Below are positions 1-31,839 of a stretch of DNA of 64,000 bases, piece after piece. Location of the stretch: assembly GCF_009914755.1 (NCBI RefSeq), contig NC_060929.1; one strand, 5' to 3'. The DNA is from the human T2T-CHM13v2.0 reference genome, Homo sapiens. The translations under genes and the position numbers were made by a program. The first letter of the stretch is position 1; each line of letters begins with the position of its first letter. The notes under the pieces were generated by a model. The model did no database searches. It was given only the letters and a program-made list of their open reading frames with translations, and had not been told where the DNA came from.

Positions 1-313
1 CTTTCTTTCTTTCTTTTTTTTTTTTTTTTTTTGCGATGGAATCTCGCTCTGCCACCAGCCTGGAGTGCAGCGGCTTGATCTCAGCTCCCTGCAATCTCGG
101 CCTCCTGGGTATAAGTGATTCCCCCCTGCCTCAGCCTCCTGAGTAGCTGGGACTACAGGTGCGCACCACCACACCTGGCTAATTTTTTGTATTTTAGTAG
201 AGACAGGGTTTCACCATGTTGGCCAGGACGGTCTGAATCTCCTGATCTCATGATCCGCTCACCTCACCCTCCCAAAGTGCTGGGATTACAGGTGTGAGCC
301 ACCGCGCCTGGCC
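1..313 (-). mobile_element. Alu (AluS-like)
   Basis: Poly-T then reverse-complement Alu dimer ending ...GCGCCTGGCC. Confidence 0.95.
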
Positions 314-319
314 TGCACT

Positions 320-470
320 GTTTCATTTGATTGTCACAACTTCATGAAGGAGATAACACTATTATATCCATAATTTTTTTCAGATGAGAAAGCAGAAGTT
401 TGGAGAGATTAAATACTTTTCCTAATTTAATGTATGTGAAGAAGCAGAGCCAGGACTTGAATATGACTCT
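320..470. mobile_element. MIR fragment
   Basis: CAGATGAGAAAGCAGAAG...AGAGCCAGGACTTGAA resembles the MIR core. Confidence 0.55.
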
Positions 471-485
471 TAACATCATAAAGTC

Positions 486-794
<309 letters not shown>

Positions 795-840
795 TAAAGT
801 CTTAATCACCACTTTAAATATTTCCTTAAGATATTGTTAA

Positions 841-1312
<472 letters not shown>

Positions 1313-1900
1313 TCACATCATTCGAGAAAAATCTTATTTCCTGCAAAATCAGAAATACTTCATCTGCAGTAGAAAATCATTTCAATGGGTTTGTGTTTAA
1401 GTTGGTACCATAAAATTAAACTTAGCTTAAACCTCACCTCCTCTGAGACTCTTCCTGATACCTCACTTCTGTTCTTAAATATCCCTTTTTAGTACCTGAT
1501 AGTGCCTATGCAAATCACCGAGTCACCTTTTTAATATTCTAACCTCCTGCGGTGTAGGCACCAGACTTTACTCAACTTTATATCCCCAATGTCTTTTACA
1601 GTGCTTGAATATAATCTGTGTGTAAAAAATACCTGCGAAGAATTAATCAGTTCAATGAATTTATGGCCAAATGACTGGCTTGATTGAAATGAAAGAAATC
1701 CAATTCGGTTCCTCTCAAAGGAAATCTCACAGCTGATATTATGATAATAAACAACCATTGTTTTTGTTCACATTAAGTAAACTAAATATTGGAGAAGTAA
1801 TTAAAACTCAAGAGGTGAGAATTCCGCCCCTAGATGTGAATATGAACAGATTTTGACAGTTTCCGCAGGAAAGCGCTGTACAGCCCAGGTTTTCAGTTCG

Positions 1901-1925
1901 GACGCCTGGTGGCACTACAGGCTAA
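1901..1925 (+). promoter_or_regulatory. Orphan CSE / putative CTCF site of relic 1
   Basis: GACGCCTGGTGGCACTACAGGCTAA, 23/25 identical to the PCDHB5 CSE and about 240 bp upstream of relic 1. Confidence 0.8.
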
Positions 1926-2148
1926 AAAGTAGGAGGAGGAGGAGCCCTGCATTTGCCTGCAGACTCCATCTTAGAAAAGACAAAATCTGAAAGGTGCTGG
2001 GAACAGATACGAGTTGGAAAACGTCCGCAGCGAGCTCAGATTTTAGAGCTTTCTTCAAACGAATGGGGACTACACAAATGTTTGGAAGTCTTACAGGACT
2101 TCCGAAGACTTCATTTACTAAAGGCAATGCACTCAGAGGATATACAGG

Positions 2149-3358
2149 AAATTGTGCGAGAAAAAAATCTGGCAGAAAACGCAGGTGGTGGGTTTTCATT
2201 TTCTTCCCGGGTGTAGCGCAGGCGGCCCAGGAAAAGGAAAACTGCTTTTTTATGGTCAGGGTTTCTGGAGATTGGCGCTGGCGGCGGAAAGGGGAGCGGC
2301 GGGAGGACAGACTGGAGCAGGATAGTTTCCAAAGAGACCAAATAATATTTCAGATCGACCCACAGAAGAGTCCTTGCTCTCAAGTAGAAAATCGGACCTA
2401 TAGGAGCCCTGCATTTCCAAGAATTACCTGTATTTAAAAAAAAAAAAAATTTGTCTTTTGAGAAAAATCTGTGTCTGAGGTGTAACCGTTTCCTCCTTTG
2501 AAAAATTCTTCTGAATGTTCCAGAATGTGCACCAGGAACATGTATGAGGTTTGGGTAAATTTTCCATCATTGGAAACTACACACTCATTTTCAATTTCCA
2601 TGTTCACAATAATGTGCTGTGCAATATTGGGGTAAGTAATTTGTCCATACGCGTGAAAAAAATCGCTGGATGAACCACAGCCCAAGGTAAGTTTAACTCT
2701 CCCAGAGAAGAATGGTAGATATCTGAGACCTCCTAAGTCCAAGTCATGACAATCAATGACAATCTTTGAGATGCAGGTCTCACAGCAACCGGCTGAAGAT
2801 TTAGTCTGAGTAAATAATTATGAATCGGCTCTCAGAATTCTCCAGGCTCACTGAATTCTGCAACCTCTGGAGAGCATTTTAAATGCTAGCAGAACATTTT
2901 AAATACCACTGATACCCCATGCATCATAAGCATCCACTGCAAGAGAATTACCAGGAAATTTCAGTGCCACGTGGCAAATACTCAGGCAATTACAAGCAGA
3001 AATAGTTTCAGAAATTGTTTCTTCATGTGAAGGACGGTGGAAGACCATGCCATTGGATGACAATCACATAGAATTGGTCATGTTGACACTTATCTGCCTC
3101 ATCCTGGAGCACTTCTGGGAAGACTTCATCTGTTTAAGAACCATAATCTCAGCACCCTGAGATAAAACAACAACAACAACAAAAACAAAACAAAACAAGA
3201 AAAAGCTTTGATCCTTCCTACCAGAGTTTTCTTTTCATTGGATATTTAAAATATTCCATAATCTGACAACCTAATAATGCAAACCAGAAAAGAGAGCTAC
3301 ACGCAACATCACTGTATTTCCAATGAAATTAGGTTCCAGGAAGCTCAAAACAAGACAG
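2149..3358 (+). pseudogene. Decayed protocadherin-beta relic 1 (signal peptide to EC4)
   Basis: Collinear peptides across frameshifts: QKTQVV (2173; cf QKRQV), FIFFPGVAQA, RIVSKETK (cf RVVSKGNK), KILLNVPECAPGT (2502; cf [14 protein letters not shown]), NYTLIFNFHVH (2575), SLDEPQPKVSLTL (2663), VQVMTINDN (2737), KDGG (3030), LDDNHIELVMLTLI (3053; cf [14 protein letters not shown]), NITVFPMKLGSRKLKT (3305; cf [16 protein letters not shown]). Confidence 0.85.
3164..3205. repeat. (CAA)n/(CAAAA)n simple repeat inside relic 1
   Basis: AAAACAACAACAACAACAAAAACAAAACAAAACAAG. Confidence 0.8.
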
Positions 3359-4512
3359 TAGGTAGAGACAGCTATCATCCTTGGCGTTCTTCCTTTTGGA
3401 TTCTGGATAAAAGGTAGAGGAATAACAGCACCGTTCTGAATGTTTTGGTTATTTTATGGCTCTAATTTCCATCGTGTTTTTTTTCTGAAGCATAGCTAAT
3501 TGTTCATTAACAGTTAACAGATATTGATGGCTTAGCTATTTTTATCTTTTTATCTATTTCACAAAGGTCTATTTAGAATCTAGTAGTGTATTTCCTCTTT
3601 ATTGTTAAGCACAGAAAAGGAACGCATTTTTTTCTGCTCATGCCTAGTTTCCTTTGATCTTTCTCAAAGGTAAATTACCCCTAAAACTTTGAGTAGACTG
3701 TCCTAGCAGATATTCTGAAGCTTGACAAGGAAATTCATCCCACTTCAATCCATAAAATGATAGTCTTCGTAACTTCTCAAAGAAGGTCAAGCTATTTATT
3801 TTAAAGTCATCTTTTGCTTTTCTTGATATTTCGTAAATGATGGCTGACAAGTTGTGATAGTCTACTTTTCAGCAGGACTGGTCTCCATTTACTTAGTTTA
3901 AGTAACTATTTACTTGATTACTATTATTAATATATGGTTTTAACTTTTTATTTGAAATAGTCATTTGATGATTTTGGTGATATTGATGACCACGAAATCA
4001 AATGGAGATATACAACTACAAGAAAAAAAACTGTAGAAATAAATGTCTTTTTCGTTATTTAAGACGTAAATCAACTGAGTTGCTGTGTAGCTTATTTATG
4101 TCAATGTTAAATTTGTGTTTGTTAATTTTTACTGTTTCCTTATTAAACATCAAAAATGATTAATTCTTTGGCAATTAATATCATAGCATATCCAGTACAT
4201 TAAATGTCATGTAAAACAGACCGACAAAACAATCTTATCTTTTTTTTCTTTATGTCAGTGTTTAATACTCTCCTGTATGGCTTAGGAAAATTAAAGAAGA
4301 TACAACAGAATATGCCTCAAATAAGACCTATTTGTTGATATTTAATATATTTATGATAGTTGCTGATAAAATGAAAACAGACATTATTCAATACACTGGA
4401 TAATAATTACATAAATACAAAGTGTTTGGTGTTTTCATTTGCCTTTCTCAAATACTTTTTTTCTTTCTAGAGAGTTTAATGCACTGACGGGGGGTGGGGG
4501 GCGGTCCTATAA

Positions 4513-4529
4513 TGGCACTGCAGGCTCAA
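4513..4529 (+). promoter_or_regulatory. Degenerate half-CSE upstream of relic 2
   Basis: TGGCACTGCAGGCTCAA matches the 3' half of the CSE (TGGCGCTGCAGGCTAAG); the 5' half is diverged. Confidence 0.55.
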
Positions 4530-4699
4530 ATGGTGGTTAAAGCAGATTGCAAATACAGTGCTGTATGTTTCATATTATATTACCCTGTCTGTGAAAGTTG
4601 TATTGGATGTCTAAGATTCTGGTGGCATAAGTAATAGAAACATTAGGGTGATCAGAGTTTGTGTAGGACCATATTTGCTGGAAGGTGTTAGAAGAAGGA

Positions 4700-6660
4700 A
4701 TAATGTAATACTTAAAGCCCAGTCTAAAACAAAGTGTGATTCTGTTTTACTAAGCATGTACCATTCAGGATACTGAACTGCAGAATTCTGTTCCAGAGGT
4801 GCTGGAGAGTGGTTCCTTCATTGCTAATTTTGCAGAGATTTTGGGCCTTAGGATGGGGAACTTGAGAGGTATGGGGAGCGAGAGGGTAATTCATGTTTCT
4901 ATAGATTTAAAAAACTGCATTTTCAAATCAAAAGACTCAGGAGTGGGTACTAAATAGAAATTGGATCCATCTGTGAGTCTCAAAGCACCTTGGAAAAATG
5001 TAACTCATTTGAGTTACTCATTTGCCTTGAGAAAGGTAACTTGGAAAAATGAGTTACATTTTTACAAGGTGCCTTGGACTCACAGATATAGCCATTCACT
5101 AGTGTGTATTACTGGATCTAGGAATGCTGCAAAAAATCAAGGAGAGCATCTTGTAGAGACCATATAGATGGCAGAACATGTAGACAGAGCAGTATTCATA
5201 AGTATATTTTGAATCCTAATTCCCATGTCTTCTCTTCTGTTTGCTTAGAGAATGGTGGCAGAAAATATCCTGAATGAGGATGGGCAATTTTCTCAGTGGA
5301 AAGAAATGGGTTGAGGTTAATTTAACTATCATGATATTGGATGGTGGGTCCCCACATAGATCCAAATCTGCATTGGTCTTCACCAAAGTTGTGGGTTATC
5401 AGTGATTTTACTCAGCTGTAATATATAGTAGTTCAGTACAGTAATCCCAGAAAAAAAGTTTTTCCTCCCTGGCTATCACTTTTCTATCAGGAATTTGGAT
5501 ACAAGGTATAATATAAAACTATCTTTAAGGTTTTACCGGGCTACTGAAGACTTAATGAAAACTTTAATAAAGCATTTACATTGGTATAAAAGTACCAAAA
5601 GCAAACCCATCACTCAAACCCGTAAATTCCAAGGCTATACTAATCTACAGTGTGGATTCTGAGATCATCAATAATTAAAGACTCTAGAAAATGTAACTTC
5701 TTGCTGTAAAAGACAGTCCACTCCTAATCATCATGTCATCATTTATGAACTAGGTCCCAAGGAGCCATATCTGCTTTAAGACCATATCTGCTGTTTCCTG
5801 TGTTTCAGATCCAGATCACAGAAAAAAAAATAGATATTTGGGCTTCATAATACCACCTTCCCTTCACCCTAAAGCCTTCAATAGAGGTAGATTAAAGACA
5901 AGTACAATTCTATGATTACTGCCAGAGATCTGGAGTTACTGTAAGCTGAAAGGAAACAATATAACCAGGTCTTCATTTTCACCAAACTGCCTCTGCACTT
6001 ATCAAGTATGAAAACACAGCCCTAGAGTGTGCATTTTAGCAGCACACTGCCATAAACAGAGACTTAGAAAAACACCCAAGTAACTTATTTGCTTCTGGTT
6101 TCCCAGGATGTGCAGTACTCCATGACAGTGGACACAAAGAATCTGTTTGTAAGGCCCATAAGAGTCAAGTTCTGTATGAGAGAAACAGACACTACTACTA
6201 CCATGAGCTAGCAGCATGGTGTTGGTGTGGTTGGTAATATTTGATGGCAATGGCAATTCTCCTTTGTGTTATATTTAATGCAGAACGGATTATGTGATGT
6301 TCAAGGTGGTGGCAGTAGAAGGAGACTAGGTCTGGAAGGTCTTCATGTCCTATCAGTTACTCAAAGACTTGAGTCTCCATCTGTATAGCGTGTTAGCCCA
6401 ACACTGGGAAGTGTGCACACTAGGTTTGTGAGTGATGGTAATCTAGCCAATCATAGACTTCAGGTTATGGTCAAGGACACTGAGATGCCACCTATGTATT
6501 CCAGATTCAGACAACAACTGCTGCTGGTCAGCTGTTTCTTTCAGCTCTACTGGCTACATCTTGACAGACCTCAGGAATATGGGGTCTGTCACTTAGATTC
6601 CTCACTTAGCATATACTATGGTTTTAGTATTCCTTTGTTTTCTTGTTGGCCTGCTTCTTT
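4700..6660 (+). pseudogene. Decayed protocadherin-beta relic 2 (EC1 to EC6/juxtamembrane)
   Basis: NSVPEVLESGSFIANFAEILGL (4784; cf [22 protein letters not shown]), KYILNPNSH (5200), GGRKYPE* (5254), LDGGSPHRSKSALV (5337), AVSCVSDPD (5790), LPFTLKPSIE, TQVTYLLL, IFDGNGNSP, KVVAVEGD*, SYQLLK, HRLQVMVKD (ORF 6413). Many stops and deletions; ends approximate. Confidence 0.92.
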
Positions 6661-6708
6661 ACACAGTAGATGTTCAAATAATTACTGTGATATGAAAATA
6701 TGTTATAA

Positions 6709-7186
<478 letters not shown>

Positions 7187-7576
7187 CATATTTTCTTTTA
7201 AAGTAAAATTTCAATAGTGATCTTAGTGAAAATTCAATCATCTACCAGATTACCTAAACCTGATTTAAGTTTTAACCTATTTTAATCATAAAAAAAAGTC
7301 TGAGATTTTTGGAAGAGGTCATACCTCTGTCTCTCTCATCTCTATTTCCATCTATATCTGTCTATCTAGCTTTATCTGCAGTCCTGGTCAAGATTTTTAT
7401 TTTCAAGGGGACAGATTGTCCTAATAGACTCTGATGGTTCTCCTTAAACAAAATTGGGCAAGATTCTTGTGCAGGTATCATTTTAAAAACCTTTTCTTGC
7501 TTATTTGTACTGTGGGAAGAGAATAAACAACACCATTTCCCCTTTTTGAGTTATATTTATTTCTTGTTTCATTTGC

Positions 7577-7892
7577 TTGTTTGTTTGTTGTTGTTGTTGT
7601 TGTTTGAGACAGGGTGTCGCTCTGTCTCCCAAGCTGGAGTGCAGTGGTGTGATCTCGGCTTACTGCAACCTCTGCCTCCAGGGCACAAGTGACGCTAACA
7701 CCCCAGCCCCCTATGTAGCTGGGACTATGGGCGTGAGCCACCACACCTGGCTGATTTTTTTTTTTTTTTTTTGGTAGACATGGGGCTTTGCCACATTGCA
7801 GGCTGGTCTTCAAAACTCCTGGACTCAAGCAATCCACCCATCTTGGACTCCCAAAGTGCTGGGATTACAGGTGTGAGCCACCACGTGTAGCC
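7577..7892 (-). mobile_element. Alu (AluJ-like) with (GTT)n tail
   Basis: Reverse Alu with GGACTCAAGCAATCC J-type segment. Confidence 0.9.
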
Positions 7893-9619
7893 GACCTTTA
7901 TTTTGAAATCTTGTTTGCTTGAGCTTCATGAAATGTATGTCTTGATAGATTATGGGGAAACTTATTTGTATCCTCAATAAGGTAAAAGTAAATTAGTTGA
8001 ATATGCCCCCAATTTTCACACTAGATTAGGGTAATAAACTATGCCAGAACACTCCCTTCTTGTCCTAGAATATTTCTCTTATATTTTCTGCAGAATCTTA
8101 GTGTTAGATCACTGAAAACCCCTCCTTCTTCTGCCATCTTATGGCTGAGTAAGTAAAGCCAGCTTGTGGGCAGAAGGCATTGAAAGGCTGAAGATCCCTC
8201 TCTATTGAAAGAGGGATACTAGTGGGGATAATATCTCCATATCATTTGGCATTATCTTTGATAGGAAAATGGTCATGTAAATCCCTTTGACTACCCTTTC
8301 TCCTAATTCTTGTAATTTTCATCTCATGGCAGTCAAAAGATCAAATCACCCTTTAGTCCAAAAAAGAGAGAGGCAAGCTTAATTATGACAGATACTCAAA
8401 CAATGTGTTCTTATTTAGTTTTTGAATGGCTGTACTTTTGTAATAAGACTGTAATGACTTGCTTTCATTTTTGGTATGTTTTTGAAAATATTTTTCTATT
8501 CCTGTATATGAAATTATTTGTGTAACATTTTAATATGTTAGATTTTATTAAATGAATCTTCAAAATTATGAAAGTGACTCCTAGGATAATGTCTCTGCTT
8601 GTGCAGCATATGAAAAGTAAAGCGAAACCTAAGAAATTAAACCTACTGTAATAACATAATTTTTAAATTATGCAATAGATTCCCCTCATTATAATATAAA
8701 TAATTACTATATGTAAACATATTTCATTCAGACTTATAAATATGCTATAAATTATAATCTAATATATATGATTCCTTATTAAAGGAGATTAAGAAAATAA
8801 GAGCATTTGTAAAGAAGGAAGGTGTATTCTCATCAAGGTTTAAGAAAATAAATGATTTAAAATAGCATAGCGGATATAATGCATTTAAAGCTGGAAACCT
8901 ATATACGAATATAAAATATTGGTGTTGGTTATATAATCTTTGAAAAAGAGAAACTTACTTCTATTTCTAGGTGTGTTAATAGCATTGAAATGAAAGATGG
9001 GTAAAACCTTCTGAATTGTGAGGACACATGACAACATGAGAGGTTTTAAAATTTTTTTCACAATAAAACCTAATGTGTTCTTGGTTATTGTATCCTCTGA
9101 AATATCTTAGATATTAAGTTTTCTATTCTCCAGCTTGTGAGAAGAGATTATGTTATTTTCTTCATATTACCTATTTTCCTCTCCTTTATGTTATCCCAAA
9201 TTAACCATAACTGCTTTAGTTCAGAAAACCTGTCCAAAGGAAATAGCCATATACCTGGTTAAATATAAAATTTCGAGTAACCTACCAGTTATAATTTGCC
9301 TGTATGATATAACTGATCTTCACTACATCTATTTCGGACCCTAATCAGGTTTTGCAGATTATATAAAAAGCTGTTTTTAAAGACTTGGACCTTGGGTGTT
9401 ATTCACCTCAATGAATTTGTTTAATGCTCAATGTCAATGAATTAACATATTTTGAATTATTATAACATCCATATAAAAGTAATAATCATGGAAAGCAAAA
9501 AATAATATCAACAGGTAGAGATAGGCATTTGTTTTCTAAATGTTAAGAAAAGGAACCTGTGATTATCCTTTTTTTAGCCAGTTACAAGATGATAAATGAG
9601 AGCTTTTTAAAATATTATG

Positions 9620-10230
9620 CTATTGTTACATTTAATAAATCATCCAGTCCAGTTTTCTGAAAATACAGGGGATAGAAGAACAGGTTAAATGATACCATGA
9701 GGAAACAATCAAATTTGGAATGTAGGACATCCTACAAAACAACTAGTCTGGACACTTCAGAAATCTAATGTCATTAAAGATGGGGGAGTATTCTAGAGTA
9801 AATAGATCTAATAGCCAAATACAATTATCAAAGTTGGTTGAAAAAGTTTCTAAGACATTCCTTATAACAAATAGTTAAAAAAGTAAGTGCATTTGTCAAA
9901 GGAACTTGAGTGAGTGTGAATTCTTATCAAAATTGAGGAAAAGATAATGGAAAGACAGTGAAATTTGATTGGGGCTGGATTTTAGATAACTGTAGAATTT
10001 TTTTAAATTTTCTTAGGTATGATAGAACCATTATGATTATATGAGATAATATTATAATTATGTGATACCTGCTGAAATATTTAGAGGTGAAATATGATGT
10101 CTGCAAGTTACTTTCATATAAGTCATCAGAAAAGCGGGTGTGTGTACAGAATAAGATAGAACAAATATGGTAAAATATAAACAATTGTTAAGTTTGGATG
10201 GAGGTTAGAGTTGTAGTTTATGTATAGTTC
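9620..10230 (+). mobile_element. Old L1M 3' region fragment
   Basis: Resembles L1MC/ME 3' UTR (GAAATATTTAGAGGTGAAATATGATGTCTGCAAGTTACTTTC). Boundaries approximate. Confidence 0.5.
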
Positions 10231-10298
10231 TTTTAACTGTTCTATATATTTAATTTTTTTCTTCATCCCCCAATTTTTTAACCCAATGGATCTTTTAG

Positions 10299-10584
<286 letters not shown>

Positions 10585-10589
10585 AAAAT

Positions 10590-11060
10590 TATTTTTTAAA
10601 GCAGCCTTAGAGTTTACAGAAAATTGAGCAAATAGTACAAACAGTTCCCCTCACATACCGATTTTCTCCCACTCAAAGTTTCCCTGTTATCAAAATCTTG
10701 CATTACTGTGGTACATTTGTTACAATTGATGAGCCAATACTGGTAAATTATTAACTAAATTTCATAGTTTAGTGTTCACTCTTTGTGTTGTATAGTTCTG
10801 TGGATTTTGACAACGGCATAATGTCATGTATCTACCATTGTAGTATCGTAAAGTACCCCATGTTTAACCTCTTCATCCCCCTCCCTCTTCTTCCTAGCTA
10901 TCACTTGTCTTTTAAATGTCTCTATAATTTGGCCTTTTTCAGAGTATCATGTAATTTGAATTATACAGTATCATTGCCTTTTCAGACTGGATTCTTTCAC
11001 TGAGAAATATGCATTTAAGTTTCCTTCATGTCATTCTGTGGCTTGATAACTTCTTTATAT
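10590..11060 (-). mobile_element. Old L1M (L1MC/MD-like) 3' fragment
   Basis: GTGGTACATTTGTTACAATTGATGAGCCAATACT and TTTCAGACTGGATTCTTTCACT are typical of reverse L1M 3' ends. Confidence 0.65.
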
Positions 11061-11865
11061 TAACATTAAAAAAGAAACAAAAAGACAAAATTAAAAAACC
11101 TAACAACAAACAATGACATATATACCCTGTTTGGAAGCAGATTGAAGAAACCATCACTGAAAAGACATTTTTAAAGATAATTGGGGAAACTGGAATATTT
11201 ACTGGCTATTTAATATTATGAAATTGCTCTTTGCTAGATGTGGTAATTGAATTGAGGTTATGTTGAAAGTTCTCCTAGGCATTAGAAAGGAAAATAATAT
11301 TGATACATTTACAATAAGGAAATATCTGGCTGCTCTTGGAGAGTTTCATGAGGCTCAGACACATCAAAGTTCAGGAAAATGTGAAGTGGGAGCAGTGCAA
11401 AGAAAGAAATATGAGTAAGGAGACTATTTCAGTGCCCATTAAAATACTCTTATTTGGATTCTGTGCTTTTCCTGGGTCTCTGTTTTTCAGCTGGGTTTGA
11501 GTGTGATGATGGTAATCTAACCACCACTGAGTTGCACACATGCCCAAACTCTGAATAAAAATAGAACTTTCTTAGTCTAAGCCTTCTTTCCGAAGCATGC
11601 TAGGACTGAGATCACTCCCTTCCAGGTTCTGAAATTTATTTTTTCCAGTTTGAAAAAAAAAAAAAGCTTGGATTTGTGAGGGAAGTGAAGATTTATTTAT
11701 TCTTGCCCTGTCTCTATGGGTGCAATGAAGAGCCTTTCGAAACGCCAATAAGACTTCGGTACACTGAGAGACACTACTTGAAAATACTCAATTTCGATTG
11801 CCATCAGCCTGAAAGAAAGCACTGGGATTTTCTTAAAGTTTAGGAGAAAATAAATACTCGGAAGA

Positions 11866-11891
11866 GACGCGGGGTGGCGCTGCAGCCTTAG
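11866..11891 (+). promoter_or_regulatory. PCDHB2 promoter CSE (CGCT box / CTCF site)
   Basis: GACGCGGGGTGGCGCTGCAGCCTTAG; TGGCGCT core 234 bp before the ATG. Same motif and spacing in all four genes. Confidence 0.88.
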
Positions 11892-12069
11892 AAGTAGCAG
11901 AAACAAAGCACCCAGCCGACGCTCCCTTACCCAGATACTCAGCTAAAGAAGCAGCAAGCAGGAAGAGGAGGCTTTCTAAGGCGGTCGCTCCGGGAAATCC
12001 GGGCCCTAGGATTGTCCACTCATCCCAGTATCAGCGAGATACGGGGAGATAGAGTTAGCGACAACGTGA

Positions 12070-22560: not shown

Positions 22561-23179
22561 AAATATGTGAATCTTTAATAGTCAGAGGAAAATTAATATA
22601 ATATTTCCTTTCACTTTAAGTACTTTATAGAGATGTTTGAATCTGGCTGTTTTGGTCAGATATTTTTCTTCTTTGCATACGTAGCTGATTTTCCATGAAT
22701 ATCAGGAAAAGGCATAGAATTCTGATCAAGATTTCTCTCTCTTTGATTACCTTAGTCCCAGGTGGTATCAGAGCCAGGGAAGTACTCAACTGTGGAAAAT
22801 ATAGAGGGCAGTTCTTTTGGGGACTAATATGGTATATGATCGGAGACTAAAGTTCAAAAGGCAATATGCTGAGTCATTTAGACACTGAAGATAGAAGAAC
22901 AGATACCATTTGTAATTTAGTTTTTAGATGTACTGGACTTATACATTGTTGAGAAAATGAATAGAATTTAGCAAAGCCAGAAAAGATAATCTATACTAAA
23001 TTTGAAGGTGGGAAACAATCACATCTTACTCTTGGTTCAAAGCTGCTTCTCTTTCAGGGCAGTTAGAAACCTTTTACCCTTTTATTTGAAGACAACTTCC
23101 AAAAACATATTCATCTGGATATTTCATTAAATACAGAACAGAGAGAGTACCACATGTACAGTACTAACTAGTGTTGCCA

Positions 23180-24987: not shown

Positions 24988-25441
<454 letters not shown>

Positions 25442-25805
25442 TCAGGGAATGTCACTGCTTCTTGGTTGTCACGGTTTCTGCTAAGGCTATAGACATGGAA
25501 GCTAATGGAGAAATTTAAAATGTTTCAATCTTCAGAGTAAATAAGTTGATTTTTAGGAAAAGTGAACTGTAACTGAAGCAATTGACACATGGGGACTATG
25601 TGGAAAACATCATGGTCTGGATTCAAGTTACAGCATTCATGGTAATGCTCAGAAAGATAATAACATACTCCAAGATTCCACTGAAATAGTGGTTGCTATT
25701 TTTTTTTTTAGAAAATAGCTTGGGACTCTGGTGATAATGCAAAATGGGCTTGCTCCTTCCAAGACAATCTCCTCATGAAACCATTTGTCAAAAATTAGTG
25801 TTCTG

Positions 25806-26090
25806 GGACTGGGCACAGTGGCTCATGCCTTTAATCCCAGCACTTAGGGAGGCCGAGACAGGAGGATTGCTTGAGCCCAGGAGTTCAACAACAGCCTGGG
25901 AAACATAGTGAGACTCTGTCTCTACAAAAAATTTTAAAAATTGACTGGGTGTGGTGGCATGCACCTGAGGTCCTAGCTACTGAAAAGGGTGAGGTGGGAG
26001 GATCCTCGAGCCCAGGAAGTTGAGGCTGCAGCAAGCCATGATCATGCTGTAGCCTGGGTAATACAGCCAGACTCTATCTCAAAAAATAAA
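25806..26090 (+). mobile_element. AluJ inserted in relic 3 (EC4)
   Basis: Diverged Alu interrupting KPFVKN..|..ILVTEK. Confidence 0.9.
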
Positions 26091-27806
26091 ATTATTTTGG
26101 TAACAGAGAAGTCAGGGCTCTGCACCATCTCTTACTAGGGTGGAATCTAACATGCAGAAATATAGCACAACATAATCACACTGTTCTTCAACACTGTCAA
26201 CAATTCCCTGACCCAAACCTCATGTACCTTATTAATTCACAATAAAAAGAAAGTCCTACTCAGAATGATGATAGTATCACTGCCAAAAACAGAGACTATC
26301 TAGGGACTAATACCTAAGTCACTTTCCCACAGCTGCCCAAAGACGTATTCCTCAGCCCTCTCTTGGTATCCATCTGCATGGACAATGGAACCTGTGTGCT
26401 TTGATGTCCCTGGTTTTTGAGATTCTTGAAGAGTTTGAGTTCTAAATGTGTCTGGAGCTTTCTGGAGTTGAGCATCAAGATGTGCAGATCCTGGATGACA
26501 CACAGCTATAATAGCTAGATAACAAAGAAAATTTATTATAAAGCAATTCTATATTGTGTACTGAGCTGTCCAGGTAGAAAAAAAGTGGTAACCCAGTGAT
26601 GACTTGGGCTAGAACTCATGACTATTTTATTGGTGATTCGAGGCCTCAGAGCCCTGGATGTTAGCATGTGGGCCCACAGCCTGGAAGTACAGAGTATGTG
26701 AAGCACATCTAGGCTTCTAAAAGACAACCACAACCAGGCATAAGCTGGTGCTGTTATTAAGGACAAGTGGAAGCCACCTTTATTTGCCATGATCATCCTA
26801 CACCTGGTCTAGGACTTACCCCAGTCTTCTCTTCCATTCCTTTAACCACCCATAAAAGGATTTCCATTTTCTTGATCACTGATTTGACTCAGTCTTCTTT
26901 CTCTTTCAATTCTCTCTGTTCCTGTGCTACTCAGATGTGGAGGGTCAACTGGGAAACTTCAGTGCATTGCTGCTCAAAAGAAAGACTCTTCCTGAGCATT
27001 TTGGGAGTATCAACACCACTGGGATTTAGTTCTAGAGCTTTCAGTGTGAGAAGTTTCTGGAATATCAGAAACAAATATCAAATTTCTGAAGCCAATTGTC
27101 TCTAATTAATGTGAGCTATCTATGAGGAAAGACTTTTAAAAGAAATTTAATTTCTAGAACAATGTGAGATTTATTTTTTAAAAATTGTATTCTCTAAATT
27201 GTATCTTTCTGAGGTTTTTTGTTTAAATTTATCTCTGAGGAAATGAATTTCTTCATCCCAAATGTTTCAATTCTATTTAATTTAAAGTAGGTAACTGGCA
27301 GTGTTGAAGTTTCATTGTCTATGTTTGTTATTACAAAAAAGGGTATTGTATATTTTACTGCAATTTTAAAAAAGAATATATTCTGAGCATCAGTGAAAAT
27401 GGTAGAGAATGGACCTCTGAAAAATCTCTTCTCCAGGAAAGCACTGAGGAAAATGAGAAAAATTTTCAAAATCTACTGCTTCAGAACTCTGAAATTTAAA
27501 CAAAGATGTACAGCAACTTAGGGAAAATTTATTGAGGGAAAAAGGTCTGACTCTTGGTTAAAAATAGTGGTTTTTGTGGCATTTTAACTGGCCTATTTCC
27601 ATCTCCATCTCTCTAGCTTCTTAGTAGCCTTTAAAGTTAACAATTTACAATCACAATGAAAATTAGCAGCTTGGCAGCCACCAGAGGAAACAGAACAGCA
27701 CCACAAAGAATTGTCATTATTTGATCTGTTTGGTGGTTCCCTGGAGGACTCCACTTGCAAGGCTGTCTTTAATTGCCTGAATTAGAGCTTGTCTAGTACA
27801 AAAAGT

Positions 27807-28264
<458 letters not shown>

Positions 28265-28689
28265 TTAGCAACAAAAAGATTTTCAAAAATGAAAATGAAC
28301 AGAGACCTGTGGGACACCATGAAGCCTACTAACTACACATACTTGAAGTCCCAGAAGGAGAAGAAGGAGACAGAATAACAGAAAGAATAGCTGAAATAAT
28401 GGCTGAAAATTTCTCAAATTTGATGAGAAACATTAACCTTCACATTCAAGGAGCCCAGCAAACTCCAACCAGGATAAAGTCAAAGAGATTCATGCCTTGA
28501 CATCATGATCAAACTGTCAAAAGCTAAAGACAAGAAGAGAACCTCAAAAACAGCAAGAGAGAAGCAACTCATCACATACCTTATCCTCAAAAATCTTATC
28601 CTCAGTATGACTGACACTGATTTCTTACAGACATAATGGAGGCCAAAGGGGAGTGGGATGACACATTCAAAGTGCTAAAAGGGACTATC

Positions 28690-31839
<3,150 letters not shown>

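What the first reader, a model, noticed from the sequence alone, without database searches (positions are those of the whole stretch)
4500..6660. Hidden PCDHB relic 2, nearly full ectodomain with a half-CSE
Seen: unmistakable EC1-EC6 motifs (ESGSFIAN, GRKYPE, LDGGSP, VSDPD, LPFTLKPS, KVVAVEGD, SYQLLK, HRLQVMVKD) compressed by deletions into about 1.9 kb. TGGCACTGCAGGCT at 4513 lies upstream. Together with relic 1, two dead gene-plus-promoter units sit in tandem upstream of PCDHB2. Inference: the beta array once held more members here (birth-and-death evolution).
Basis: partly seen in the sequence, partly recalled or inferred. Interest (0 to 1): 0.7.

Follow-up and report, generated by a model that had tools for sequence, protein, structure and literature searches.

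The report
Ancient dead protocadherin-beta gene copy
This stretch is the badly decayed remains of an extra protocadherin-beta gene with a broken promoter motif, an ordinary leftover of gene duplication and loss in this cluster that the RefSeq gene table does not list.

Summary
A DNA profile of 15 living PCDHB coding exons aligns in one continuous hit to window 4779-6557 (+). The hit has E=8.7e-76 and 59.7% identity to the consensus. It corresponds to PCDHB2 residues 33-675, that is EC1 to EC6. None of 200 shuffles, nor the reversed sequence, gave a hit.

The copy is dead. It carries 52 indels and 10 in-frame stops, GC is 39% and CpG o/e is 0.07. The signal peptide, membrane span and tail are not detectable.

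It is beta-type. 17 of 17 beta proteins hit it and 0 of 22 non-beta protocadherins did. A tree places it with beta2-16 to the exclusion of beta1 with 100% support.

The promoter motif (CSE) survives as a 3' half at 4513-4526, matching 13 of 14 bases with CGCT changed to CACT. A probable 5' half lies at 4487-4497, displaced by 15 inserted bases.

Relic 1 (CSE 1898-1930, coding 2163-2763) is also real, so birth-and-death turnover in the array is supported.

"Relics" in human Pcdh clusters are already in print as a category. I could not check whether this particular one is. Low interest.

The parts
4487..4497 (+). Probable 5' half of the promoter conserved sequence element (CSE): ACGGGGGGTGG against the living-gene consensus ACGCnTGGTGG
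   Evidence: match with 2 mismatches. The pattern has 51 matches in the window against 21 expected, so a match on this strand within 40 nt of the 3' half has a chance of about 0.01 (my arithmetic).
4498..4512 (+). 15 extra bases (GGGGCGGTCCTATAA) splitting the CSE core. In living genes the two halves share one TGG.
   Evidence: Read and compared with the alignment of 17 PCDHB upstream regions. That it is an insertion is inference.
4513..4526 (+). 3' half of the CSE: TGGCACTGCAGGCT, 13 of 14 bases matching TGGCGCTGCAGGCT. The one change is CpG to CpA.
   Evidence: 6 matches at 2 or fewer mismatches in the window, all on the + strand, against 0.18 expected. Four lie upstream of PCDHB2, B4, B5 and relic 1; sixth-best CSE-profile hit in the window (E=0.61 window-wide), after the four living genes and relic 1.
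4527..4778 (+). Decayed 5' UTR and signal-peptide region. The start codon is inferred near 4688.
   Evidence: Inference from profile position 92 aligning to 4779. No alignment is detectable here.
4779..6557 (+). Relic of the ectodomain EC1-EC6, equivalent to PCDHB2 residues 33-675
   Evidence: nhmmer E=8.7e-76, 1014 of 1699 aligned columns identical to the consensus. maps profile positions to residues. One search gives the PCDHB2 domain limits (Cadherin_2 at 33-114, Cadherin_C_2 from 688); 10 stops in 507 complete codons.
6558..6616 (+). Weak protein-level extension to about residue 688, just before the membrane span
   Evidence: tblastn HSP 6407-6616 aligned to residues 621-689. The nhmmer envelope ends at 6575.
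4945..5112 (.). Imperfect palindrome (long hairpin) inside the EC1/EC2 part of the relic
   Evidence: arms 4981-5010 and 5047-5076 are 93% complementary. MFE -72.3 kcal/mol, z=-9.8; the profile alignment has low posterior probability at about 4993-5050.
1898..1930 (+). CSE of relic 1, the neighbouring dead unit (context)
   Evidence: E=1.2e-5, whole motif kept apart from CGCT to CACT and one G to A change.
2163..2763 (+). Coding remnant of relic 1, profile positions 18-714 (EC1-EC2)
   Evidence: E=8.2e-18, 346 of 573 columns identical to the consensus.

Best explanation
Window 4487-6616 (+) is an ancient unprocessed pseudogene (a 'relic') of a protocadherin-beta single-exon gene. A tandem duplicate within the beta array, of the beta2-16 lineage, lost function. 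It has since decayed without constraint. Its CpG island was erased by methyl-CpG deamination. Many small indels accumulated, with a bias towards deletion. Its CTCF-binding promoter motif was broken, and both ends of the coding exon have become unrecognisable. It most likely does nothing today.

Shown here: the homology, its extent, its beta affinity, its broken reading frame, the CpG loss and the CSE remnant.

Inferred: the tandem-duplication origin, the loss of CTCF binding and transcription, and an age of more than about 100 million years.
For: (1) One continuous DNA-profile alignment at 4779-6557, E=8.7e-76, 59.7% identity. 0 hits in 200 shuffles plus the reversed sequence.

(2) With a search space the size of the genome, 17 of 17 beta proteins hit it (E from 3.8e-8 to 0.022) and 0 of 22 alpha, gamma, C-type or chr4 protocadherins reached E<=1.

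(3) The ML tree puts relic 2 with the beta2-16 crown to the exclusion of beta1 at 100% support, and as sister to the crown at 89%. The AU test rejects 'sister to beta1' (p=0.022) and 'outside beta' (p=0.033).

(4) Decay: 35 deletions and 17 insertions. 10 stops in 507 codons. GC 39% against 55-57% in the living genes. CpG o/e 0.07 against 0.69-0.76. Of 75 consensus CpGs, 2 are kept and 40 are now TG, CA or TA.

(5) Relaxed constraint: the branch-length ratio of codon positions 1+2 to position 3 is 0.72 for the relic (0.593/0.825), 0.24 for living crown lineages and 0.20 for beta1.

(6) Promoter remnant on the same strand, about 175 nt before the inferred start codon. Living genes in the window have 234-263 nt.

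(7) The PDB search of the EC1 piece finds Pcdhb1 (E=0.0014) and Pcdhb8 (E=0.0066) at the homologous residues. The EC5/6 piece finds gamma-A4 (E=0.04).

(8) The region has no second copy elsewhere in the genome apart from its own internal inverted repeat.
Against: Pfam gives only a sub-threshold PF08266 hit (E=4e-4, 20.6 bits against a cut-off of 23) and no PF00028 hit on the 12 frame pieces tried.

The CSE profile hit is not significant window-wide (E=0.61). It gains weight only from its position and strand.

No other species could be examined, so the age and neutrality rest on one genome.

Mismatches are still uneven across codon positions (0.386, 0.294 and 0.522). This fits a period of constraint before death, but alignment bias could also produce it.

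No expression, methylation or CTCF data were available, so 'does nothing' is inferred.
Confidence: 0.93

Rival explanations
1. The relic has been co-opted as a non-coding element, for example a weak CTCF or insulator site, an enhancer, or a source of small RNA from the 4945-5112 hairpin.
For: A very stable hairpin lies inside it (MFE -72.3 kcal/mol, z=-9.8). Its arms are 93% complementary, much better kept than the 60% identity of the relic as a whole. A G-rich stretch with CSE halves remains at 4487-4526.
Against: Decay is even along the whole alignment and CpG o/e is 0.07. Rfam gives only hairpin look-alikes far below threshold (24.1 bits against 50, and 22.7 against 230). The CSE core is split and mutated. 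In print, 5-15 bp linkers between the SSE and CSE, or point mutations in the CSE, abolish promoter activity (PMC3333863, passages seen). RefSeq lists no functional element here (hub table).
Confidence: 0.04
2. It is a processed (retrotransposed) copy of a PCDHB mRNA that landed inside the cluster, not a tandem duplicate.
For: PCDHB genes have a single exon, so the absence of introns cannot tell the two origins apart.
Against: A CSE remnant lies upstream of the transcribed region at about the right distance and on the same strand. A retrocopy would not carry the promoter. The relic sits in the array in the array's orientation, beside two more relics of the same kind.
Confidence: 0.02
3. The motifs are chance resemblance in AT-rich intergenic DNA.
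For: Individual Pfam and PDB hits are weak.
Against: nhmmer E=8.7e-76. 0 hits in 200 shuffles plus the reversed sequence. Six collinear tblastn pieces.
Confidence: 0.005

Closest known systems
'Relic (r)' variable-region sequences of the human clustered protocadherin loci. The term appears in the Figure 2 legend of PMC7766791. From memory, not seen here, it was introduced by Wu & Maniatis 1999 and Wu et al. 2001.
   Same: A fragmentary, frame-broken remnant of a Pcdh variable exon lying in the array in the array's orientation.
   Different: I could not see the original maps, so I cannot say whether this relic is one of those drawn. It is longer than 'fragment' suggests, covering all six EC repeats, and it keeps a recognisable promoter remnant.
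PCDHB17P, PCDHB18P and PCDHB19P (named PCDHB pseudogenes). PCDHB17P is in the hub table and is locus L020.
   Same: Dead members of the same tandem array.
   Different: These are far younger. PCDHB17P still matches PCDHB2 at 68% amino-acid identity with a 588-residue open frame, and it sits inside the living crown of the tree. Relic 2 matches at 34-48% over short pieces, has a branch of 0.86 substitutions per site and is not annotated.
PCDHB2-PCDHB16 (living beta genes)
   Same: The same exon architecture from EC1 to EC6 and the same CSE type. They are its nearest relatives.
   Different: The relic has no open frame, no CpG island, no detectable membrane span or tail, and a split CSE.
PCDHB1
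   Same: Beta family. It is the upstream neighbour.
   Different: The relic is not of the beta1 lineage. DNA identity is 50.5% against 55-58% to beta2-16, and the AU test rejects a sister relationship (p=0.022).

Membership tests
Protocadherin-beta variable exon (PCDHB family), by descent | Six cadherin repeats, collinear, in one uninterrupted stretch of DNA | tested here: met
   One nhmmer alignment of profile positions 92-2017 to window 4779-6557, equivalent to PCDHB2 residues 33-675.
Protocadherin-beta variable exon (PCDHB family), by descent | Closer to beta than to alpha, gamma or C-type protocadherins | tested here: met
   17 of 17 beta queries hit and 0 of 22 non-beta queries hit. The beta clade including the relic has 100% support. 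'Outside beta' is rejected, AU p=0.033.
Protocadherin-beta variable exon (PCDHB family), by descent | CSE promoter motif about 230-260 nt upstream of the start codon on the same strand | tested here: inconclusive
   The 3' half matches 13 of 14 bases at 4513-4526, but the profile E is 0.61 window-wide. A probable 5' half lies at 4487-4497, displaced by 15 nt. The distance to the inferred start is about 175 nt.
Functional PCDHB gene | Open reading frame of about 800 codons | tested here: not met
   52 indels and 10 stops in 507 complete codons. The longest stop-to-stop frame in the region is 120 aa.
Functional PCDHB gene | Membrane span and cytoplasmic tail (Pfam Cadherin_C_2, residues 688-770 in PCDHB2) | tested here: not met
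   The profile alignment ends at position 2017 of 2388, and there is no further hit at E<=10 in window 1-11900.
Functional PCDHB gene | CpG island over the exon | tested here: not met
   CpG o/e is 0.07 and GC 39%, against 0.69-0.76 and 55-57% in PCDHB2-5.
   PF08266 scored 20.6 bits against a cut-off of 23 (E=4e-4). PF00028 gave no hit on 12 pieces. The pieces between frameshifts are only 30-76 residues long, so this test has little power.
Processed pseudogene | No promoter carried along, with a poly(A) tail and target-site duplications | tested here: not met
   A promoter remnant is present upstream. A poly(A) tail and duplications were not searched for.

The most novel reading that the evidence does not exclude
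Relic 2, perhaps together with relic 3 at 25414-27106, is a fossil of an extinct beta paralogue that split off before the radiation of all living beta2-16 genes and died well before the placental mammals diverged (roughly 150-250 million years ago). It would then be shared at the same place by most mammals. It would also preserve a partly readable ectodomain from an otherwise lost early generation of the beta array.
Probability: 0.4. Interest if true: 0.3.

Novelty: new member of a known kind. Interest (0 to 1): 0.2.

Why it matters
It matters little on its own. It adds an unannotated dead member, with two neighbours, to the gene census of the human PCDHB cluster. It also gives direct evidence that the array turned over by birth and death of genes. 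If the relics are shared across mammals, their common lesions would date the early history of the beta cluster. On the practical side, annotating them would prevent stray cadherin-like matches and CSE-like motifs here from being read as new genes or CTCF sites.

Tried and rejected
Pfam on 14 queries covering 12 distinct frame pieces gave only one sub-threshold hit. The pieces are too short for the generic cadherin model.

The PDB search of the EC1 piece put a designed 'CAP REPEAT' chain first (E=4.6e-9, but with 0 stretches passing on their own). I treat it as a composition artefact and did not follow it up.

Rfam on window 1-12000 gave Alu-derived SRP and miRNA look-alikes outside the relic, and two weak hairpin look-alikes on the palindrome. 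Nothing there is usable.

I first read the palindrome at 4945-5112 as an inserted foldback transposon. The own-genome search found no other copy (that search is a lower bound). The profile aligns the right arm to coding sequence with high posterior probability, so a local inverted duplication is equally possible. This is left open.

Papers. Wu et al. 2001 (two look-ups), Wu 2005 and Noonan et al. 2004 are not held. Full-text searches for protocadherin or Pcdh with 'relic' gave only one relevant sentence, the Figure 2 legend of PMC7766791. PMC9004415, on protein fossils, mentions only PCDH19 as a landmark. Its one held supplement has no PCDHB entry.

Only the 28 kb upstream of the window could be added, and it holds no further relic (best E=0.041).

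hmmalign placed only 228 columns of relic 1, so its grouping with PCDHB2 (79% support) is not reliable.

Full report
**What is there**

TGGCACTGCAGGCT is at 4513-4526.

tblastn with the window's own PCDHB2-5 proteins against window 1-11900 gives collinear + strand pieces:
- 4787-4906 (residues 36-80)
- 5185-5274 (residues 164-193)
- 5292-5393 (residues 200-235)
- 5854-5886 (residues 388-398)
- 6201-6428 (residues 539-631)
- 6407-6616 (residues 621-688)

Identity in these pieces is 35-50% over 27-91 residues. The 10-11-residue piece at 5854-5886 is 73-80% identical. A further piece at 5483-5566 (residues 265-292) appears with other paralogues.

**Strength and extent**

I fetched the other clustered protocadherin exons from the window's own genome. 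From 15 PCDHB coding sequences I built a codon-aligned DNA profile.

- nhmmer finds one continuous alignment, profile 92-2017 to window 4779-6557, at E=8.7e-76 and 244 bits.
- 1014 of 1699 aligned columns are identical to the consensus (59.7%). There are 35 deletions (227 nt; the largest are 44, 38, 21, 18 and 16 nt) and 17 insertions (80 nt).
- 200 dinucleotide shuffles of 4500-6660 plus the reversed sequence gave 0 hits at E<=10.
- The aligned part corresponds to PCDHB2 residues 33-675. That runs from the start of EC1 (Pfam Cadherin_2 at 33-114) to just before Cadherin_C_2 at 688.

So the whole ectodomain is represented. The signal peptide and the membrane span plus tail are not detectable. 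The net shortening of the aligned part is only 147 nt, so 'compressed by deletions' is an overstatement.

**It is dead and has decayed**

- Read in the PCDHB2 frame, it has 10 stops in 507 complete codons.
- GC is 39% and CpG o/e is 0.07. PCDHB2-5 have 55-57% and 0.69-0.76.
- Of 75 CpGs in the living-gene consensus, 2 survive, while 19 are TG, 13 are CA and 8 are TA. This is the signature of methyl-CpG deamination.
- On the fixed tree, the relic's branch is 0.593 substitutions per site at codon positions 1+2 and 0.825 at position 3, a ratio of 0.72. Living crown lineages give 0.154 and 0.640 (ratio 0.24). Beta1 gives 0.224 and 1.11 (ratio 0.20).

If position 3 is taken as near-neutral, about 60% of the branch was unconstrained. 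That is roughly 0.4-0.5 substitutions per site since death. By my own arithmetic with textbook mammalian rates, this points to well over 100 million years, perhaps 150-250. The estimate is a rough inference from one genome. The initial CpG richness inflates it.

**Which family**

With the search space set to genome size, 17 of 17 beta queries hit the region. The sixteen beta2-16-type queries gave E from 3.8e-8 to 7.8e-6, and beta1 gave 0.022. None of the 22 alpha, gamma, C-type and chr4 protocadherin queries reached E<=1.

DNA identity over 1591 columns is 55-58% to beta2-16, 50.5% to beta1 and 42-47% to the others.

The ML tree puts relic 2 as sister to the beta2-16 crown (89% support). That group excludes beta1 at 100%, and the beta clade has 100% support. 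The relic's branch is 0.86.

AU tests reject 'sister to beta1' (p=0.022) and 'outside beta' (p=0.033). They do not reject placement inside the crown beside PCDHB2 (p=0.08) or PCDHB3 (p=0.205). A stem position could also be an artefact of gene conversion among the living genes (a recalled idea from Noonan et al. 2004, which I could not read) or of long-branch effects.

**Promoter**

An alignment of 17 PCDHB upstream regions gives the beta CSE as ACGCnTGGTGGCGCTGCAGGCTAAGA.

- The 14-mer TGGCGCTGCAGGCT at 2 or fewer mismatches occurs 6 times in the window, always on the + strand, against 0.18 expected. The places are upstream of PCDHB2, B4 and B5, at 1910 (relic 1), at 4513 (relic 2, one mismatch, CGCT to CACT) and at 30128.
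- A CSE profile ranks the four living genes first, then relic 1 (1898-1930, E=1.2e-5), then relic 2 (4513-4533, E=0.61, 3' half only).
- The 5' half, ACGGGGGGTGG, lies at 4487-4497 and is followed by 15 extra bases. PCDHB2 has ACGCGGGGTGG. The chance of such a match that close on that strand is about 0.01 (my arithmetic from the counts).

The motif is therefore better described as split than as halved. It lies about 175 nt before the inferred start codon, compared with 234-263 nt in the living genes of the window.

In print, the CSE together with the adjacent SSE is bound by CTCF. CSE point mutations, or 5-15 bp linkers between the SSE and CSE, abolish promoter activity (PMC3333863, passages seen). 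I infer that this promoter no longer binds CTCF.

**Surroundings**

- Relic 1 is a separate dead unit with its own CSE and a coding remnant at 2163-2763 (E=8.2e-18, profile 18-714). It overlaps relic 2 in profile coordinates, and the two are only 44-51% identical to each other.
- A third relic lies between PCDHB3 and PCDHB4, at 25414-25800, 26162-26500 and 26599-27106 (E from 1e-17 to 1.5e-25). A possible 5' piece is at 22732-22852. It groups with relic 2 (90% support), though long-branch attraction is possible.
- The 28 kb upstream of the window holds no further relic.
- The rest of the cluster could not be surveyed.
- The region has no second copy in the genome apart from its own inverted repeat.

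**An unexplained detail**

An imperfect palindrome at 4945-5112 folds at -72.3 kcal/mol (z=-9.8). Its core arms are 93% complementary, far better kept than the relic itself, so it must be younger than the gene's death. No other copy was found in the genome (a lower bound). Rfam gives only sub-threshold hairpin look-alikes.

**What is known**

The RefSeq table supplied with the finding has no row for window 1-11900. 'Relic (r) or pseudogene' variable-region sequences in all three human Pcdh clusters are mentioned in the Figure 2 legend of PMC7766791. The original maps (Wu & Maniatis 1999, Wu et al. 2001, Wu 2005) are not held, so I cannot say whether this relic is drawn there. From memory I think it likely, at about 60%.

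**Verdict**

This is a real, ancient, unannotated dead PCDHB unit of a well-known kind. Interest is low.

Noticed in passing
window 25414-27106 (+), with a possible 5' piece at 22732-22852: A third PCDHB relic lies between PCDHB3 and PCDHB4. Three collinear nhmmer hits cover profile positions 726-2319 (E from 1e-17 to 1.5e-25). It is as diverged as relic 2 (branch 0.81) and groups with it in the tree (90% support).
   Followed up: partly
window 1898-1930 and 2163-2763 (+): Relic 1 has a nearly complete CSE (E=1.2e-5) and an EC1-EC2 coding remnant (E=8.2e-18). Weak tblastn pieces run up to 3358. Only 2.6 kb separates its CSE from that of relic 2, so most of its 3' part has been deleted.
   Followed up: partly
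window 4945-5112: A long imperfect palindrome lies inside relic 2 (MFE -72.3 kcal/mol, z=-9.8; core arms 93% complementary). It is younger than the relic. No other copy was found in the genome. Its origin, foldback element or local inverted duplication, is undecided.
   Followed up: partly
window 30128-30141 (+): A CSE-like 14-mer, TGGCAATGCAGGCT (2 mismatches), lies inside the large masked repeat at 28663-31499. It may be chance or the promoter remnant of yet another relic.
   Followed up: no
window 31-312, 505-786, 928-1208, 6904-7185, 7609-7891, 10335-10484 (-): Alu elements, seen as sub-threshold Rfam SRP, mir-1268 and mir-3135 matches. The one at 6904-7185 lies within the region where the relic's tail and 3' UTR would be.
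   Followed up: no
PDB chain 8vd6_A against window 4778-4957: A designed 'CAP REPEAT' chain was the top hit for the EC1 piece (E=4.6e-9, but no single stretch passed on its own). It is probably a composition artefact.
   Followed up: no
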